Virus record (IMG/VR): IMGVR_UViG_2690316285_000013
Length of the DNA: 6,310 bases
From: a virus
Taxonomy: Duplodnaviria > Heunggongvirae > Uroviricota > Caudoviricetes
Strand: one strand, 5' to 3'
In this document: positions 1-6,310 of the stretch, piece after piece
How positions within the stretch are numbered: the stretch's first letter is position 1
How the letters are laid out: every line of letters starts with the position of its first letter
Program-made: the position numbers and the translations under genes
Notes under the pieces: model-generated
What the model was told of the DNA's origin: nothing
The model's database searches: none
Seen by the model: only the letters and a program-made list of their open reading frames with translations

Positions 1-31
1 AAAACACTATCAATAAGTTGGAGTCATTACC
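1..31 (+). mobile_element. IS1 right terminus (last 31 bp including the terminal inverted repeat); the element body lies left of the window
   Basis: Positions 1-31 (AAAACACTATCAATAAGTTGGAGTCATTACC) match the 3' end of IS1 as I recall it. The boundary is ambiguous by 1-2 bp because the flank continues with CC. No transposase ORF is inside the window. Confidence 0.7.
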
Positions 32-131
32 CCAATTTTTTACGTACGTAAACCACTAAATGATATTTGCGAGAATGCTACCGAGTATTGAAAACACCAC
101 TACAAATACATAAGCAAATCCCAACAAATAA

Positions 132-774
132 CCAACAAATAATTTCCAGTGTTATTTTTAGCCGGTTTAAATTGAACCTTCAAATTATAGAGCACTTATA
201 AATAACAGCCGTTAATATAAATTGGCTAATAGATTTATTTTTATTCAGCCAAGAGCCATGAATAGGATTCGATAGAAAAAAGTTCAGATAAAAATAGAGA
301 TCTACTTCACAAATCAAACGAGAAACCAAAACTTACATCTTGAAATAATCACATTGATTAGATGAATATTTATCGCGCAGTGACATCATTTTTTAATAAT
401 AGTTCAAAAAAAGGGCTCACGATGAAAAAATTAACAGTGGCAATTTCTGCTGTAGCTGCATCAGTACTGATGGCGATGTCTGCTCAGGCAGCTGAAATTT
501 ATAATAAAGACAGTAACAAGCTGGATCTGTACGGGAAAGTTAATGCTAAGCACTACTTCTCCTCTAATGATGCAGATGATGGTGATACTACTTATGCCCG
601 TCTTGGCTTCAAAGGTGAAACCCAAATCAACGATCAACTGACTGGTTTCGGTCAGTGGGAATATGAATTCAAAGGCAACCGCGCTGAATCTCAAGGTTCC
701 TCCAAAGATAAAACCCGTCTTGCCTTCGCTGGCCTGAAATTCGGTGACTACGGCTCCATCGATTACGGCCGTAA
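132..774 (+). repeat. Copy A of a 643-bp perfect direct repeat (porin upstream region plus the first 353 nt of the porin CDS)
   Basis: Base-by-base comparison shows 132-774 is identical to 1671-2313 (offset 1539). Copy A ends at the N-run, so its true extent is unknown. Confidence 0.9.
422..774 (+). pseudogene. 5' fragment (118 codons) of the NmpC/OmpD-family porin gene, interrupted by the N-run
   Basis: Same ATG, ribosome-binding site (AAGGG) and signal peptide ([25 protein letters not shown]) as the intact copy at 1961. The reading frame runs into N at 775, and the sequence after the N-run (1140 onward) does not match the porin 3' region. It may be a truncated copy or an assembly artefact. 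Confidence 0.45.
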
Positions 775-1139
775 NNNNNNNNNNNNNNNNNNNNNNNNNN
801 NNNNNNNNNNNNNNNNNNNNNNNNNNNNNNNNNNNNNNNNNNNNNNNNNNNNNNNNNNNNNNNNNNNNNNNNNNNNNNNNNNNNNNNNNNNNNNNNNNNN
901 NNNNNNNNNNNNNNNNNNNNNNNNNNNNNNNNNNNNNNNNNNNNNNNNNNNNNNNNNNNNNNNNNNNNNNNNNNNNNNNNNNNNNNNNNNNNNNNNNNNN
1001 NNNNNNNNNNNNNNNNNNNNNNNNNNNNNNNNNNNNNNNNNNNNNNNNNNNNNNNNNNNNNNNNNNNNNNNNNNNNNNNNNNNNNNNNNNNNNNNNNNNN
1101 NNNNNNNNNNNNNNNNNNNNNNNNNNNNNNNNNNNNNNN
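775..1139. other. Run of 365 undetermined bases (N): an assembly gap or masked sequence
   Basis: Directly visible. ORFs in the track that cross it (X residues) are not interpretable. Confidence 0.95.
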
Positions 1140-1226
1140 CGGATTGTTCAGGCTCCAATAGGTTGAGTATGCCGTATTTATTTTCCAAAATAAAAATCGA
1201 TGCTGTTGCTCCTTCATAAAATACTT

Positions 1227-1669
1227 TTACTCTCTGGACGCTTTTCTTAGCTCTCTTGGTGTTATCTTAAAACGATTATGGAACCTTTCAGTAAAACGAG
1301 AAGGACACTTGTAACCATTTTCCCTGGCAATCTCGCTGATGGGTTTTACTGTCGTTTGTATAGCAGACAACGCATTATTTAACCTCACGTCGTCCAATAT
1401 ACTTTGAAAACTTACTCCCTCGCTTGCCAGACGGCGATGCAATGTGGAAACAGAAATGTAGAGATATCTCGCTACCTTGTTTGCTGTCCATTTTGTTCCA
1501 GGTTCGGATAGCATTAGGTTATAACAACGACTTATTAATGATTGTTTACTATCTGATAAAAGTAAACAATTAACATGATGTGCTCCTAATGAAAGTAGAA
1601 CGCCCATTGCTAAGTGTTCCTGAATTTGCGTTGAGAAGCCTCGGGAAATAGATGTTTTTAGTTGCTCCC
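1227..1669 (-). pseudogene. 3' fragment of an AraC/XylS-family transcriptional regulator gene (C-terminal helix-turn-helix domain); the 5' part is missing at the junction at 1670
   Basis: The minus-strand translation (...[83 protein letters not shown]...) has the typical two-HTH AraC C-terminal signature. The frame stays open upstream of the listed Met all the way to the N at 1670 (…[23 protein letters not shown]…), so the gene is truncated by the junction and has no real start. It may be a ybcM-like prophage regulator, but I cannot confirm identity from memory. Confidence 0.6.
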
Positions 1670-1670
1670 N

Positions 1671-2313
1671 CCAACAAATAATTTCCAGTGTTATTTTTAG
1701 CCGGTTTAAATTGAACCTTCAAATTATAGAGCACTTATAAATAACAGCCGTTAATATAAATTGGCTAATAGATTTATTTTTATTCAGCCAAGAGCCATGA
1801 ATAGGATTCGATAGAAAAAAGTTCAGATAAAAATAGAGATCTACTTCACAAATCAAACGAGAAACCAAAACTTACATCTTGAAATAATCACATTGATTAG
1901 ATGAATATTTATCGCGCAGTGACATCATTTTTTAATAATAGTTCAAAAAAAGGGCTCACGATGAAAAAATTAACAGTGGCAATTTCTGCTGTAGCTGCAT
2001 CAGTACTGATGGCGATGTCTGCTCAGGCAGCTGAAATTTATAATAAAGACAGTAACAAGCTGGATCTGTACGGGAAAGTTAATGCTAAGCACTACTTCTC
2101 CTCTAATGATGCAGATGATGGTGATACTACTTATGCCCGTCTTGGCTTCAAAGGTGAAACCCAAATCAACGATCAACTGACTGGTTTCGGTCAGTGGGAA
2201 TATGAATTCAAAGGCAACCGCGCTGAATCTCAAGGTTCCTCCAAAGATAAAACCCGTCTTGCCTTCGCTGGCCTGAAATTCGGTGACTACGGCTCCATCG
2301 ATTACGGCCGTAA
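1671..2313 (+). repeat. Copy B of the 643-bp perfect direct repeat (part of the intact porin locus)
   Basis: Identical to 132-774. It is preceded by a single N at 1670. Confidence 0.9.
1879..1908 (+). promoter_or_regulatory. Candidate sigma70 promoter for the porin gene (TTGAAA -35-like hexamer, AT-rich -10 region about 18 bp downstream)
   Basis: TTGAAA at 1879-1884 and GAATAT/AATATT near 1903-1909, about 50 nt upstream of the ATG at 1961. The -10 match is weak and the call is by eye only. The same motif sits in copy A at 340-370. Confidence 0.2.
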
Positions 2314-3043
2314 CTACGGTGTAGCATACGACATCGGTGCGTGGACTGACGTCCTGCCAGAATTCGGTGGTGACACTTGGACTCAAACAGATGTGTTCAT
2401 GACTGGTCGCACCACTGGTGTTGCAACTTATCGTAACAACGACTTCTTTGGTCTGGTTGATGGTCTGAACTTTGCTGCTCAGTATCAGGGTAAAAATGAC
2501 CGCACTGACGTAACTGAAGCTAATGGTGATGGTTTCGGTTTCTCCACTACTTATGAGTATGAAGGATTCGGTGTAGGTGCAACCTATGCTAAATCTGACC
2601 GCACTAATAATCAGGTTATCTACGGTAACAACAGCCTGAATGCATCTGGTCAAAATGCTGAAGTATGGGCAGCTGGTCTGAAATATGATGCGAACAACAT
2701 CTATCTGGCTACCACCTATTCTGAAACCCAGAACATGACTGTTTTTGGTAATAACCATATTGCCAACAAAGCACAAAACTTCGAAGTAGTTGCACAATAT
2801 CAGTTCGACTTCGGTCTGCGTCCGTCCGTTGCTTACCTGCAATCTAAAGGAAAAGACTTGGGTGCGTGGGGTGATCAGGACCTGGTTGAATATATTGATG
2901 TAGGTGCAACCTATTACTTCAACAAAAATATGTCCACTTTTGTTGATTACAAAATCAACCTGATTGATAAGAGCGATTTCACGAAAGCATCTGGCGTTGC
3001 TACCGATGATATCGTTGCTGTAGGTATGGTTTACCAGTTCTAA
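1961..3043 (+). CDS. nmpC: Outer-membrane general porin of the OmpC/OmpF superfamily, closest to the prophage-borne NmpC/OmpD/Lc group (360 aa precursor)
   Basis: ATG at 1961 with AAGGG 8 nt upstream. The N-terminus is a classic signal peptide ending AQA/AE, followed by the porin hallmark [17 protein letters not shown] and PEFGG and a C-terminal VYQF beta-barrel signal. It lies next to lambdoid Q, as nmpC does in DLP12. The ORF-track start at 1901 (MNIYRAV...) is an upstream in-frame extension without a ribosome-binding site and is rejected. The gene symbol is less certain than the family. Confidence 0.85.
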
Positions 3044-3067
3044 TTTGATTACTAAAAGATATGTTGC

Positions 3068-3114
3068 GGGAGGCTTTGCCTCCCCAATATATAAGTGGCT
3101 CCCTCAAGCCACTT
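3068..3114 (+). terminator. Two adjacent stem-loops downstream of the porin gene (GGGAGGC-TTT-GCCTCCC at 3068-3084; AAGTGGCT-CCCTCA-AGCCACTT at 3093-3114)
   Basis: Perfect 7-bp and 8-bp inverted repeats seen directly. Neither is followed by a clean T-run, so terminator function is uncertain. They could also be a Q-utilisation or other regulatory element for minus-strand transcription. Confidence 0.3.
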
Positions 3115-3180
3115 CCTTTAGGAGCACAACCTTGCTTCTAACTATATAAACCTTCTGTTATATATTACCCTTTATTTTTG

Positions 3181-3214
3181 GGGGCGTTGCAACGCCCCAT
3201 TTTTAATAATTTTT
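3181..3214 (+). terminator. Rho-independent terminator (GC-rich palindrome GGGGCGTTGCAACGCCCC followed by ATTTTTAATAATTTTT)
   Basis: GC-rich hairpin followed by a T-rich tract on the plus strand, between the convergent porin (stop 3043) and Q (stop 3232). The T-run favours plus-strand termination of the porin transcript. Confidence 0.5.
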
Positions 3215-3231
3215 AGTAAACAATTGGCATA

Positions 3232-3615
3232 TTAATTAGAGTTATTAACAACGATATCCATCTCTAACCGGATATCTAATGCCATTAACATCCCTTCAAT
3301 TATGCCCTCAGCCTTCTGTAACCTTTTCCCGATATAACCATCAGAGCAGCAATGCTTACCTGCCAGTGACATGAATGTCATACCGACTACATAATAATCT
3401 ACTAATAAATCGTGCAAATCGCTGTTGTTCTTTTTCAGACGGGCCATGCACCCGCAAATAATCATCGCGTCATCGTCACAACATTGCGGGCGAGATTTTA
3501 CTTTTGAAGTAATTAATCCCTTAAAACCGGCGGCAATGGACGACCAGGTCACATCTTCATGATTATTAGCCGCCCACGCTCCCCAACGCTCAAGAACCAT
3601 CTGAATATCACGCAT
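3232..3615 (-). CDS. quuD: Lambdoid late-gene antiterminator Q (127 aa)
   Basis: The translation ([31 protein letters not shown]...[18 protein letters not shown]...) matches the DLP12/phage-82-type Q family as I recall it. ATG at 3615 with GGAG 8 nt upstream. The ORF-track start at 3630 uses TTG with no ribosome-binding site and is rejected. Confidence 0.8.
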
Positions 3616-3700
3616 CAACTTACTCCACAAAAATCAGACCAGAACGCCAATTACAAGCAAAAATCAACAAAACAGTATTAGTTGATTGTTATCTCTGACT

Positions 3701-3841
3701 TCATACTCCTGCTCCTGTCAGGGTTTTGGCGTAATTCTTCAGTATTCGGTAATCGGTCAAAACAGAACCGGGGAAACGATATAAGCGCAGATGCCCCCAG
3801 CGGTGGCGAAGAAGTTCTGCCATATAAAACTCAAACATCAT
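3701..3841 (-). CDS. ylcG: Small 46-aa protein, YlcG-like, translationally coupled to rusA (ATGA overlap)
   Basis: Minus-strand [49 protein letters not shown], which I translated by hand. Its start ATG (3841-3839) overlaps the rusA stop (3840-3838). The size and position between rusA and Q match ylcG of DLP12, but identity is not verified. It is not in the supplied ORF track. Confidence 0.4.
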
Positions 3842-4200
3842 TCATTCCCCATTTCGGTGATGGTCAGTTCCAGCCTCCCACCTTTGGTAACAGGCATCTT
3901 CACAACGCGGTAATCAACGACCTGAGCATCATCCAGCCAGAAACCTGCTTTGGTGAGTGCGTCAAAAGCGGCTTTTTGCAGATTATCCAGGTCACGGCGA
4001 CGGCGATCCGGCATGTGGCACTCAATACGGATTTTCACTGGCATAGCCAGGCCGATATCCAGCATTGCGTTTTTAATGATTCGGGTGACGTTATCGCGGT
4101 ATGCCTGCCCTTCTGCGCTGATGTGTGTGCGCCCGCGATTATGGCGGTAATAGCGGTTATTGCTCGGAGGCCAGGGTAATGTGATGCTGTAGGTATTCAC
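3838..4200 (-). CDS. rusA: RusA Holliday-junction resolvase (120 aa)
   Basis: [23 protein letters not shown]... and the acidic catalytic region [18 protein letters not shown]...WLDDAQV match RusA. The start codon is GTG at 4200-4198, overlapping the ybcO stop. Confidence 0.85.
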
Positions 4201-4487
4201 GCCTTAATAACCCCCTCTTTCAGCCAGATAACCTGCGTTCTCGCCATACCTTCCAGCGCGCATTCTTTTGCATACTCAGCATCGACAAAATATGTGCGGC
4301 GGTCGATTTCGTCGTGACAGGCAGAACATGCAATGGTGGCAATCAGGTCTGGCGGTTTGATACCGGTACCGCACAATCCAGCCAGCCGGATATGTGCCAG
4401 TACTGACGTTTCAGGATTGCCATTACATACGCCAGGGATTCTTACCTGGCATTCCCGACCACGCGCTGCTTTTCTCAAATCAGCCAT
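4197..4487 (-). CDS. ybcO: YbcO-like Cys-rich protein (DUF1364; putative prophage nuclease), 96 aa
   Basis: ATG at 4487 preceded by AGGAGG (plus-strand TCCTCC at 4491-4496). The protein [23 protein letters not shown]...CSACHDEID is Cys-rich. The ORF-track start at 4526 is a 13-codon upstream extension and is rejected. The start overlaps the ninE stop by 8 nt. Confidence 0.7.
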
Positions 4488-4650
4488 GATTCCTCCTTGC
4501 TGCCAGTCGCAACCATTTTTTATCAACCAGGCTAGCGGTATATCCGAGCAGTGTTGGTATTTCGGATGGCTTCAGCTCAGGCTTACGCTTACGACGATTT
4601 GATACTCTGTAGATGTGCCCGTTCATGACACGAATAAGCGGTGTAGCCAT
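4480..4650 (-). CDS. ninE: NinE-like small protein (56 aa)
   Basis: Hand-translated minus-strand [59 protein letters not shown]. Its ATG (4650-4648) overlaps the ninB stop (TAATG), and its position between ninB and ybcO matches lambdoid nin regions. It is not in the supplied ORF track. Confidence 0.6.
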   Translation of the reverse strand: MATPLIRVMNGHIYRVSNRRKRKPELKPSEIPTLLGYTASLVDKKWLRLAARRNHG

Positions 4651-5105
4651 TACGCCTCCTGCTTATCGCGCAGCTGCTGGTATTCACAGCTCTGCGGAAT
4701 TGTCAGGTGGCAGCCGATATTCATCGCCCAGGCTTCGACTTTGCACAGGAAGATGTACATCTCGCCGGTTTCCAGCTCTGACGTATGGCGGAGGGATTGG
4801 ACGGTGGTGACCTCGCCGGACACGACATCTACACGGTCTTTGCTTTCGTAGCCGAGATAGGTGTGCTTCATCGCGTCTTTGACCCACTCAGGCGTAGCGA
4901 AGGTCTTGCCGCGGGCGATGAGATATTCGCTGATCTCCGTGTACCACATGTGGCTGAGCGCGTTCTGCGACAGGCTGCGCTTCTCGCGCCACGGCTTAAC
5001 CTGCAGGCGTAAGCATTGCCCGGCATCCAGCAATGGCTGAATCTGCTGGCCGATGGCCGCGAAGTTACCGCGATGGAGTTTGATGCCGTCTACTGGCAGA
5101 GTCAT
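4650..5105 (-). CDS. ninB: NinB/Orf-family recombination mediator (151 aa; YbcN-like)
   Basis: ATG at 5105 with GGGAGG upstream. Length and motifs (RSLSQNALSHMWYTEISEYL) are consistent with the lambda NinB family. It is the first long gene of the minus-strand operon. Confidence 0.8.
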   Translation of the reverse strand: MTLPVDGIKLHRGNFAAIGQQIQPLLDAGQCLRLQVKPWREKRSLSQNALSHMWYTEISEYLIARGKTFATPEWVKDAMKHTYLGYESKDRVDVVSGEVTTVQSLRHTSELETGEMYIFLCKVEAWAMNIGCHLTIPQSCEYQQLRDKQEA

Positions 5106-5197
5106 ACGGCCTCCCTAACGGAAACCGCAGAATGCAGAAAATCGCAGGTGCATTTCTGCATCTGTGACAAGGTGATGAGTTCAGATTGTGGTCGCAT
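5102..5197 (-). CDS. Small 31-aa ORF, translationally coupled to ninB (ATGA overlap); possibly ylcH-like
   Basis: Hand-translated MRPQSELITLSQMQKCTCDFLHSAVSVREAV. It has an AAGGGGA ribosome-binding site 6 nt upstream, and its stop overlaps the ninB ATG. It is very short, so this is a low-confidence call. Confidence 0.3.
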   Translation of the reverse strand: MRPQSELITLSQMQKCTCDFLHSAVSVREAV

Positions 5198-5216
5198 TTA
5201 AGTCCCCTTAAATGCG
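5132..5216. promoter_or_regulatory. Two inverted repeats upstream of ninB (ATGCAGAAA-12 bp-TTTCTGCAT at 5132-5161; CGCATTTAA-GTCCCC-TTAAATGCG at 5193-5216)
   Basis: Perfect 9-bp arms seen directly. The second repeat encloses the ribosome-binding site of the small ORF. Candidate roles are operator, RNA structure or an early-operon terminator of the tR2 type, with no clean U-tract. Confidence 0.3.
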
Positions 5217-5369
5217 CAGAAGTCACCGGAGTTGTTCAGGCTCCGATGAGAGGATTATGGCGGATTGATTACGATAAATCAAAACTATCTTGAAGCCAAA
5301 ACAGTGATCTTCGCTTTAAAAACCTTGTATACTTTCACCTAATCACAGCCAGAACTATGGATCTAACCA

Positions 5370-5747
5370 ATGACCAACAAAGAAAACAAAGATAAATATA
5401 TTAACAAGTTCAAGAAAGAGCTTTCAAAATATATACAACCAACTGCTGGAGTGGACATTCAATTATTTAACTCTAAGGATGGTGGTGGTGTAATTAAAGC
5501 CACTTTGAATAGAAGTGGAAAAAGAAAATCATCTATTGCTGGTAATTTTACTAAATTAGGTGAGGCAATTACCTCGAGTGGGCAGAGGGTTTTTGGTGGT
5601 GATCTATCAAATGTGAATTTTTACGGAACAAATACGATTTTTGATGGAGATACAATATTTTTAATTAAATCACCTGATTCAGAGGAGTGGTCATCACAAA
5701 AAGCTTCCAAAGACGTAGAGGGCATCGTATTTGGAGGGAAAAAATGA
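5370..5747 (+). CDS. Hypothetical hydrophilic protein, 125 aa, Lys- and Gly-rich, no signal peptide or transmembrane segment; first gene of an AT-rich two-gene cassette
   Basis: ORF from ATG 5370 to TGA 5745-5747, with an in-frame stop 2 codons upstream, so it is not a fragment of a longer frame. The ribosome-binding site is weak (GGA about 9 nt upstream). Base composition is much more AT-rich than the adjacent nin genes. I recognise no family. Confidence 0.55.
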   Translation: MTNKENKDKYINKFKKELSKYIQPTAGVDIQLFNSKDGGGVIKATLNRSGKRKSSIAGNFTKLGEAITSSGQRVFGGDLSNVNFYGTNTIFDGDTIFLIKSPDSEEWSSQKASKDVEGIVFGGKK

Positions 5748-6172
5748 TTAACATTACTACTAAGGATGGCACTCAAGTCAGTGGTGAAGTAAGAGATCTA
5801 GTAATTCTTCTTGAAACTGATGGAAAAACGGTGTCTGATTATTTGCAGCCAATCCCTCCCAAAAAAGATACACACTGGAGCATGATTTTCATTCCGGTAG
5901 CAATTTATATACTACTTAATCTTGTATACATTATTGCTCACCCATTATTTCCTGAAAAATATCTAAAAACATCAACATCTATATTTCTATTCATTTCCTT
6001 CATATTAAGTGCAATAGTAGCATATTTTGTTTTCCATAAGCATAAATCTGCCACTCTATCCATATGCAGCTTAGTGTTCTTAGTGTTAATTGTAGGTGCT
6101 AACGTAGGGTTTATCAGTTACAGCGACCTAACACAAAAAGCGACGCAAAAATTAGATAGTTTGTCTAAATAA
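5744..6172 (+). CDS. Hypothetical small integral membrane protein, 142 aa: about 45-aa hydrophilic N-terminal domain followed by three predicted transmembrane helices and a charged C-terminal tail
   Basis: ATG at 5744 overlaps the upstream stop (ATGA), with a strong GGAGGG ribosome-binding site 5 nt upstream. Hydrophobic stretches: WSMIFIPVAIYILLNLVYIIAHPLF, TSIFLFISFILSAIVAYFVF, LSICSLVFLVLIVGANVGFISY. The ORF-track start at 5687 is a non-ATG extension inside the upstream gene and is rejected. Confidence 0.6.
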   Translation: MINITTKDGTQVSGEVRDLVILLETDGKTVSDYLQPIPPKKDTHWSMIFIPVAIYILLNLVYIIAHPLFPEKYLKTSTSIFLFISFILSAIVAYFVFHKHKSATLSICSLVFLVLIVGANVGFISYSDLTQKATQKLDSLSK

Positions 6173-6279
6173 TTATGTTGCCATGCGAAGTATGCATGGC
6201 TGCATGTCTGCCTTCCATTTAAAATGGGCTAAGACCTATAACCCTAAATATTATTCTTTATTATCTTCTTTACCACTTC

Positions 6280-6310
6280 GGTGATGCTGCCAACTTACTG
6301 ATTTAGTGTA
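6280..6310 (+). mobile_element. IS1 left terminus (first 31 bp including the terminal inverted repeat); the element continues right of the window
   Basis: GGTGATGCTGCCAACTTACTGATTTAGTGTA matches the IS1 left end as I recall it. It is in the same orientation as the IS1 end at 1-31. Confidence 0.7.

What the first reader, a model, noticed from the sequence alone, without database searches (positions are those of the whole stretch)
1140..1669. Orphan 3' fragment of an AraC-family regulator gene embedded between the two porin-promoter copies, with a flank paralogous to the ninB upstream region
The minus-strand AraC-type reading frame is open from the N at 1670 to its stop at 1227-1229, so it is a C-terminal gene fragment with no start. 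Its 3' flank (1140-1226) shares a near-identical core (TTGTTCAGGCTCC) and extended diverged similarity with 5226-5290 upstream of ninB. This looks like a piece of a second, related lambdoid prophage (ybcM-ylcH-ninB-like region) juxtaposed by recombination, or a chimeric assembly of two paralogous prophage copies.
Basis: partly seen in the sequence, partly recalled or inferred. Interest (0 to 1): 0.5.

Follow-up and report, generated by a model that had tools for sequence, protein, structure and literature searches.

The report
ybcM gene piece in scaffold gap
The "orphan AraC regulator fragment" is the last 146 codons of the well-known E. coli gene ybcM, sitting as a 530-base block fenced by N's inside a draft scaffold, so its place between two identical porin promoters is most likely an assembly construct rather than biology.

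Summary
The minus-strand frame 1669->1227 is open. It encodes residues 120-265 of the 265-aa AraC-family protein YbcM, 100% identical to the common allele. The 3' flank is truly homologous to the region upstream of the ninB/ybcN-type gene (score 24 against 8.5 +/- 1.3 in shuffles).

The fragment is an island of 530 bases between a 365-N run and a single N. On either side lie two 100% identical copies of one 643-nt porin segment (132-774 = 1671-2313).

Close relatives carrying the same two IS1 junctions have one porin locus and no ybcM there. These are the complete chromosome CP049179.1 and an IMG/VR contig.

The ybcM|porin-upstream junction was not found in 5,426 complete E. coli genomes, the GTDB, viral or metagenome contigs, or a 5.8-billion-cluster protein set.

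In thousands of E. coli, ybcM lies intact downstream of a paralogous porin, or a remnant of one, in a DLP12-derived island.

Best reading (about 0.6): two paralogous prophage remnants sharing an identical stretch were threaded into one scaffold. A real microhomology-mediated rearrangement (7-nt CCAACAA at the junction) is not excluded (about 0.25). Low interest.

The parts
1..31 (.). Terminal 31 nt of an IS1 copy (right inverted repeat); the left end of the record.
   Evidence: Identical to the end of an annotated IS1A in L003. In CP049179.1 (L036) a full 768-nt IS1 ends here, with an 8-bp target duplication CCAATTTT.
32..421 (+). Natural upstream region of the nmpC-type porin (essD-porin intergenic region), copy 1.
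   Evidence: Contiguous 99.5% match of 32-774 to the K-12 DLP12 nmpC region.
132..774 (+). Duplicated 643-nt block, copy 1: porin upstream from position 132 plus the first 353 nt of the porin gene (ATG at 422). It ends at the N run.
   Evidence: 100% identical to 1671-2313 (D1).
775..1139 (.). Run of 365 N (scaffold gap or masked sequence).
   Evidence: The length fits neither known island variant.
1140..1226 (-). 3' flank of ybcM. It is the remnant of the ybcM-ylcH-ybcN intergenic region and is paralogous to 5227-5284.
1227..1669 (-). 3' 443 nt of ybcM: codons 120-265 plus the stop. It holds the whole AraC-type HTH DNA-binding domain and lacks the N-terminal half and the start codon.
1670..1670 (.). 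Single N joining the ybcM block to the second porin-upstream copy.
   Evidence: The junction was not found in any collection searched.
1671..3043 (+). Duplicated block copy 2 (1671-2313), continuing into the complete 360-aa nmpC/OmpC-type porin gene (1961-3043).
3232..5105 (-). DLP12-type late-regulation and nin module: quuD 3232-3615, ylcG 3701-3841, rusA 3838-4200, ybcO 4197-4487, ninE 4480-4650, ybcN/NinB-family gene 4650-5105.
   Evidence: RefSeq annotation of the 99.5% identical ETEC1731 locus; NCBIfam and PHROG hits.
5123..5284 (.). Region upstream of the ybcN/ninB-type gene. It is homologous to the natural sequence downstream of ybcM and is the paralogue of 1140-1196.
   Evidence: 5123-5270 matches the island sequence next to ybcM in EcN and E2863 at 72-73%. 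The natural flank aligns with score 54.
6280..6310 (.). First 31 nt of a second IS1 copy (left inverted repeat), in the same orientation as the IS1 at the left end; the right end of the record.
   Evidence: Sequence read directly. The IS1 starts at the same point in L036 and L016.

Best explanation
Shown: block 1140-1669 is genuine ybcM sequence, the last 146 codons plus 87 nt of 3' flank.

Inferred: its position is a product of scaffolding a short-read draft genome, probably a Shigella-like E. coli lineage rich in IS1.

The source genome probably holds two paralogous DLP12-type remnants.
- (i) An IS1-bounded remnant carrying the porin, quuD, rusA and a ybcN/ninB-type gene. This is blocks 1-774 and 1671-6310, which overlap and together describe one locus.
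- (ii) The usual ybcM island, in which a porin or porin remnant lies upstream of, and convergent with, ybcM.

The two loci share an identical 643-nt stretch (132-774). Contigs were extended through that repeat from either side, and read pairs that map to both copies linked them. The scaffolder then laid them out as A - gap - ybcM piece - N - C.

On this reading the fragment is not an orphan gene, nothing regulatory follows from its position, and the tandem 'second porin promoter' is a by-product.

The homology between the flank and the ninB-upstream region is real. It is ordinary shared ancestry of the ybcM-ylcH-ybcN junction of DLP12-like prophages.
For: - The fragment is bounded by N's on both sides, and the two flanking porin copies are 100% identical with identical limits.
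- Window 1-131 plus 1671-6310 is collinear at 99.9% with a gap-free IMG/VR contig (L016) and with the complete chromosome CP049179.1 (L036). Both have the same two IS1 junctions and no ybcM within the stretches held here (about 6-8 kb to either side). Relative to them, window 132-1670 (1,539 nt) is extra.
- A 141-nt query across the 1669|N|1671 junction finds no place covering 80% or more of it in 5,426 complete E. coli genomes. The junction pattern has 0 hits in GTDB genomes, IMG/VR and JGI metagenome contigs, even when 0-30 unknown bases are allowed. No junction-spanning ORF exists among 5.8 billion protein clusters.
- A real truncation would yield a 126-aa product from the ATG at 1607. That product is on no contig longer than 200 kb.
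- The fragment is 100% identical to intact ybcM at its usual locus.
- In EcN-type genomes a full porin lies upstream of and convergent with ybcM, in the same order and orientation as block A -> gap -> block B. Most such genomes also carry a second porin locus (places_in_record = 2).
- The record ends in exactly 31 nt of IS1 on each side, as contigs of short-read assemblies do.
- False duplications separated by assembly gaps are a documented class of assembly error (PMC9516828).
Against: - No reads are available, so the artefact is inferred and not shown. The source record itself was not found.
- The right end of the ybcM block and the start of block C share an in-register 7-nt microhomology, CCAACAA (9 nt, TCCCAACAA, with the neighbouring 11-mer unit). 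Random break pairs give this with P of about 0.002.
- The left end of the block falls inside a 17-nt exact match to 5214-5230. A plain mis-scaffold does not predict either coincidence.
- The 365-N gap matches neither island variant seen: 1,144 nt in the EcN type, and a porin remnant ending at position 462 in the E2863 type.
- No island allele with a porin 5' segment identical to 132-774 was found among the genomes and loci compared here.
Confidence: 0.6

Rival explanations
1. The arrangement is real. A 1.5-kb segment holding a second copy of the porin 5' block, about 365 nt of unknown sequence and the ybcM 3' fragment was inserted or duplicated just upstream of the prophage porin. The mechanism would be microhomology-mediated recombination or template switching between the prophage remnant and the ybcM island, joining at CCAACAA. 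The N's then only mark junction bases that a short-read assembler could not resolve, because both segments are two-copy repeats. The product would be a truncated ybcM able at most to express a 126-aa protein consisting of the DNA-binding domain alone.
For: - In-register 7-nt microhomology at the B|C junction, P about 0.002 by simulation.
- The left end of B lies inside a 17-nt exact match with 5214-5230.
- The identical limits of both copies (132 and 774) are what a true two-copy repeat produces.
- Position 775 is a third codon position, where alleles commonly diverge.
- The internal ATG at 1607 leaves the HTH_18 domain intact.
Against: - Both junctions are N's, and the blocks share no k-1 overlap.
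- Neither junction exists in 5,426 complete E. coli genomes or in any contig collection searched.
- The closest relatives have a single copy.
- The 126-aa product appears on no contig longer than 200 kb.
- No sigma-70-like promoter was found in 1140-2000.
- The model needs at least two independent non-homologous events.
Confidence: 0.25
2. ybcM really is truncated at 1669/1670 in the source strain by an insertion sequence. That is why the contig stops there, but the neighbour shown in the scaffold (the porin upstream region) is still a false join.
For: - The lineage is IS-rich. IS1 lies at both ends of the record, and IS2 and another transposase gene lie nearby in relatives.
- ybcM is often disrupted in public assemblies: the 126-aa product is listed in 375 blocks of the collection.
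Against: - The right end of block B carries no IS terminal sequence, whereas both outer ends of the record carry 31 nt of IS1.
- Public contigs ending at 1667-1669 (29 blocks) are no more frequent than at control positions 1655 (16 contigs read; block count not given) and 1640 (38 blocks).
Confidence: 0.1

Closest known systems
YbcM (b0546), the AraC-family putative regulator of cryptic prophage DLP12, and its allele in the yedK-fliE island (WP_000879833.1)
   Same: The fragment is 100% identical to residues 120-265 of the island allele and 94% identical to K-12 YbcM. It has the same C-terminal HTH_18 / HTH_AraC domain and the same 3' flank.
   Different: Only the C-terminal 55% is present. 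There is no N-terminal domain, no start codon, and no ybcL or emrE neighbours. It is bounded by N's.
The DLP12 ybcM-ylcH-ybcN junction of E. coli K-12
   Same: Both 1140-1197 and 5227-5284 align to the same K-12 segment downstream of ybcM, so the two window regions are paralogous copies of that intergenic region.
   Different: In the window's prophage remnant the ybcM side has been replaced by two plus-strand genes of unknown function at 5370-6172.
The yedK-[porin -> <- ybcM-ybcL-emrE]-fliE island, a DLP12-derived deletion remnant present in most E. coli
   Same: Porin followed by convergent ybcM, in the same order and orientation as block A, the gap and block B. The ybcM allele is the same, at 99.6-100%.
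   Different: The island's porin region is only 82-90% identical to 85-774. The spacing differs from 365 nt. The window's left flank (IS1 plus 32-84) belongs to the other locus.
False duplications flanking assembly gaps (Ko et al. 2022, Genome Biol 23:205, PMC9516828)
   Same: Identical duplicated copies separated by gaps, and absent from better assemblies of close relatives.
   Different: That paper describes vertebrate assemblies. Read depth and pair discordance, its other criteria, cannot be tested here.

Membership tests
AraC/XylS family transcription regulator | C-terminal DNA-binding domain of about 100 aa with two helix-turn-helix motifs | tested here: met
   Pfam HTH_18, 62.7 bits against a cut-off of 33.6, residues 66-142. 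HTH_AraC, 27.9 bits against a cut-off of 26.6.
AraC/XylS family transcription regulator | A complete protein with an N-terminal sensing or dimerisation domain and its own start codon | tested here: not met
   Only residues 120-265 of 265 are present. No start codon lies between the upstream stop and the ATG at 1607.
YbcM orthologue | Near-identity to YbcM over the aligned length | tested here: met
   146/146 to WP_000879833.1 and 137/146 to K-12 YbcM. The DNA is at least 99% identical in 2,649 complete genomes.
YbcM orthologue | Native synteny: ybcL and emrE upstream, with ylcH-ybcN or a porin remnant downstream | tested here: not met
   The window has an N followed by porin upstream sequence where the ybcM 5' half and ybcL should be.
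   All named equivalogs fall far below their cut-offs, for example GadX at 40 bits against 500 and YdeO at 33 against 348.
Assembly false duplication or mis-scaffold | Identical copies separated by gap characters | tested here: met
   132-774 equals 1671-2313 with 0 mismatches. N runs lie at 775-1139 and 1670.
Assembly false duplication or mis-scaffold | The duplication is absent from gap-free or finished assemblies of close relatives | tested here: met
   L016 and the complete chromosome CP049179.1 have one copy, with the same IS1 junctions, at 99.9% identity.
Assembly false duplication or mis-scaffold | Read depth and discordant read pairs over the duplicated copies | not testable with these tools
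   No reads are available and the source record was not found.
Microhomology-mediated rearrangement (illegitimate recombination or template switching) | Short shared sequence exactly at the novel junction | tested here: inconclusive
   7-nt CCAACAA in register, P about 0.002. However, the junction base is an N and the blocks overlap by only 2 nt.
Microhomology-mediated rearrangement (illegitimate recombination or template switching) | The junction sequence is read through in at least one assembly | tested here: not met
   0 hits in every collection searched.

The most novel reading that the evidence does not exclude
In the source strain a ybcM 3' fragment, templated from the ybcM island, was really inserted together with a second copy of the porin promoter and 5' region immediately upstream of the prophage porin. 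The join would be a microhomology-mediated (CCAACAA) template-switch or duplication event. That would give a natural example of complex prophage-to-prophage patchwork and a possible AraC protein made of the DNA-binding domain alone.
Probability: 0.2. Interest if true: 0.3.

Novelty: not a real feature. Interest (0 to 1): 0.1.

Why it matters
The value is mainly quality control. Taken at face value, the record would produce three false annotations: an orphan AraC regulator, a truncated second porin gene and a tandemly duplicated porin promoter. It would also suggest a recombination event between prophages that is probably not there.

The real biology underneath is already known. DLP12-type remnants in E. 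coli and Shigella are mosaic paralogues that share identical stretches. The ybcM-ylcH-ybcN junction survives in diverged form upstream of the ninB/ybcN-type gene.

If the junction proved real, it would be a modest, strain-specific example of microhomology-mediated prophage patchwork.

Tried and rejected
- Finding the source record or an independent copy of the junction. Exact and gapped junction patterns gave 0 hits in GTDB genomes, IMG/VR and JGI metagenomes. The IS1|porin junction pattern gave 0 hits in GTDB and metagenomes and two IMG/VR contigs, neither with N's nor ybcM.
- Looking up products that run through the N's. 422-1219 and 1570-1734 are not on record. A protein search with the junction-spanning 54-aa ORF found nothing.
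- 'A lineage has an IS at 1669.' Rejected: contigs ending at 1667-1669 (29 blocks) are no commoner than at control positions 1655 (16 contigs read) and 1640 (38 blocks).
- L013, where a porin lies divergent from a 126-aa ybcM ORF, looked like the window's junction. Its porin is unrelated and only ybcM matches.
- A chimeric left junction (5111-5230 joined to 1144-1263). The best full-length hits are only 87%, which is simply the natural island.
- A second porin allele diverging exactly at 132 and 775, or a single-unit variant of the 11-mer repeat, which would explain the block limits. None was found among K-12, EcN, L035 and L037 or among the loci whose sequence matched the anchor used.
- The idea that L017 ends 63 nt past position 131 because of a k=64 repeat overlap. 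Not supported: its other end shows no such signature, and the contig runs through IS1 and IS2.
- A promoter and terminator scan of 1140-2000 found nothing.

Full report
**Anatomy of the window.** The 6,310-base record falls into three blocks separated by N's.
- Block A (1-774) starts with the last 31 nt of an IS1. The natural upstream region of an nmpC-type porin follows (32-421), then the first 353 nt of the porin gene.
- A run of 365 N follows (775-1139).
- Block B (1140-1669) is the finding.
- A single N sits at 1670.
- Block C (1671-6310) restarts at the equivalent of position 132. It carries the whole porin gene (1961-3043).
- On its minus strand, block C carries quuD, ylcG, rusA, ybcO, ninE and a YbcN/NinB-family gene. 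Two plus-strand genes of unknown function follow, then the first 31 nt of another IS1.
- Positions 132-774 and 1671-2313 are identical at every base.

**Check of the observation.**
- The minus-strand frame 1667->1227 is open for 146 codons and ends at the stop 1227-1229.
- Upstream of the N the frame stays open, but it has no start codon before the internal ATG at 1607.
- The product matches Pfam HTH_18 (E=4e-17) and HTH_AraC. It also matches positions 120-265 of the 265-residue family phrog_6899.
- It is 100% identical to residues 120-265 of YbcM WP_000879833.1 and 137/146 identical to K-12 YbcM.
- The 530 nt are at least 99% identical in 2,649 complete E. coli genomes. Identity to the K-12 DLP12 allele is only 89%.
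- The 3' flank resembles 5227-5284, with a 13-nt exact core and 72% identity over 53 nt. The alignment score is 24 against 8.5 +/- 1.3 in 2,000 shuffles, none of which reached it.
- The homology is real. One K-12 segment just downstream of ybcM aligns to both regions. The natural flank, followed further left than the window's N's allow, aligns to 5123-5284 with score 54.

**Where ybcM normally lives.**
- In K-12 it lies in DLP12, in the order ybcL-ybcM-ylcH-ybcN-ninE-ybcO-rusA-ylcG-quuD, followed by nmpC on the other strand.
- In most other E. coli the allele seen here lies in an island between yedK and fliE.
- In EcN-type genomes the island reads porin (plus strand), a 99-nt quuD remnant, a diverged copy of the ybcN-upstream region, then ybcM-ybcL-emrE on the minus strand.
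- In E2863-type genomes the porin is deleted down to its first 41 nt.
- So 'porin, then convergent ybcM' is a natural arrangement of a paralogous DLP12-derived remnant. Genomes that have it usually carry a second porin locus as well (places_in_record = 2).

**Is the window's arrangement real? Evidence against it.**
- Two close relatives carry the same two IS1 junctions: an IMG/VR contig without N's (L016) and the complete chromosome CP049179.1 (L036).
- In both, window 1-774 and 1671-6310 map onto one collinear locus at 99.7-99.9%. Both window copies show the same SNPs relative to them, and no ybcM lies in the stretches held.
- Relative to these, window 132-1670 is 1,539 extra positions. They consist of a perfect repeat, N's, and a piece of a gene that has its own locus elsewhere.
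- The junction 1669|N|1671 is covered in none of 5,426 complete E. coli genomes.
- It has no hit in GTDB representative genomes, IMG/VR or JGI metagenome contigs, even allowing 0-30 unknown bases.
- It gives no ORF in a 5.8-billion-cluster protein set.
- A real truncation would make gene callers report the 126-aa product. That product occurs on no contig longer than 200 kb.
- The record ends with exactly 31 nt of IS1 at each side, as short-read contigs ending in repeats do.
- Duplications separated by gaps are a recognised class of assembly error (PMC9516828).

**Most likely mechanism (inferred).** The source genome holds two paralogous loci, the IS1-bounded prophage remnant and the ybcM island. 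They share an identical 643-nt stretch (132-774).
- Contigs were extended through that repeat from each unique side. This gives two contigs that both contain 132-774 with exactly the same limits.
- Read pairs from the island's porin remnant to ybcM then link block A to block B. Their orientation matches the natural island.
- Blocks B and C were juxtaposed with a non-positive gap estimate, written as a single N.
- On this reading ybcM is not an orphan and nothing regulatory follows from its position.

**What this does not explain.**
- The right end of block B and the start of block C share an in-register microhomology, CCAACAA. With the adjacent 11-mer unit it is TCCCAACAA. Random break pairs give 7 nt or more with P of about 0.002.
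- The left end of block B falls inside a 17-nt exact match to 5214-5230.
- The 365-N gap matches neither island variant seen.
- No allele identical over 132-774 and diverging at 131 and 775 was found among the genomes and loci compared.
- These points keep a real microhomology-mediated insertion or duplication alive as a rival (about 0.25). It has no positive support from any other genome.
- A third possibility is an IS cutting ybcM at 1669. It is not supported. Block B carries no IS end, and public contigs do not end at that position more often than at control positions.

**Comparison with what is known.**
- The fragment is ybcM, not a new AraC relative. Named AraC equivalogs all score far below their cut-offs.
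- The published information on YbcM found here is thin. One paper lists it as a prophage-encoded single-target regulator whose target is its own operon (PMC8249747).

**Verdict.** As a biological feature (an orphan regulator fragment between duplicated promoters) it is most probably not real. The underlying sequences are well-known DLP12-family genes. Interest is low.

Noticed in passing
window 1-31 and 6280-6310; L036 6843-7610 and 12319-15221: The record is bounded by two IS1 copies in direct orientation. In the finished relative, the left IS1 is a simple insertion with an 8-bp target duplication (CCAATTTT) in the essD-porin intergenic region. The right IS1 cuts the 3' end of the replication gene P, has no matching target duplication, and appears to be interrupted itself by a roughly 2.1-kb insert holding a transposase gene (Pfam rve). 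This points to IS1-mediated deletion or rearrangement of the prophage.
   Followed up: partly
window 121-142 (and 1671-1681): An 11-bp unit, CCAACAAATAA, is tandemly duplicated in the porin upstream region. Block C starts exactly at the second unit. Every natural allele that matched the anchor used also has two units, with point differences.
   Followed up: partly
window 5370-5747 and 5744-6172 (plus strand): Two overlapping genes of unknown function (125 aa and 142 aa) occupy the place that ybcM-ylcH holds in DLP12. By eye the second has three hydrophobic stretches. They match only phrog_18061 and phrog_16940 (unknown function), with no NCBIfam or PADLOC hit. This looks like a moron-type cassette. 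Relative to CP049179.1 the window has one extra G at 5769, inside the second gene; no gene is called there in that genome.
   Followed up: partly
L015 (EcN) 6338-8719; L001 (E2863) 6368-7885: The yedK-fliE island carrying emrE-ybcL-ybcM is a deletion derivative of a DLP12-like prophage. It retains a 95-99-nt 3' remnant of quuD and a 72-73% diverged copy of the ybcN-upstream region. It exists in at least two deletion variants: one with a full porin, one with only the first 41 nt of the porin.
   Followed up: partly
loci L005-L014: The 126-aa C-terminal YbcM product (ATG equivalent to 1607) is listed in 375 blocks of the public collection. In some longer contigs ybcM is split into separate ORFs (L006, L007). 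In several others the contig simply stops at or one base past that ATG. Disruption of the ybcM 5' half may therefore be common.
   Followed up: no
window 2305-2400 compared with L004, L015, L035 and L037: nmpC-type porin alleles are mosaics. The upstream region and the first 115-140 or so codons are near-identical between alleles. Divergence begins at different points between about 2305 and 2389. Identical stretches of several hundred nt between paralogous porin loci in one genome are therefore to be expected.
   Followed up: partly
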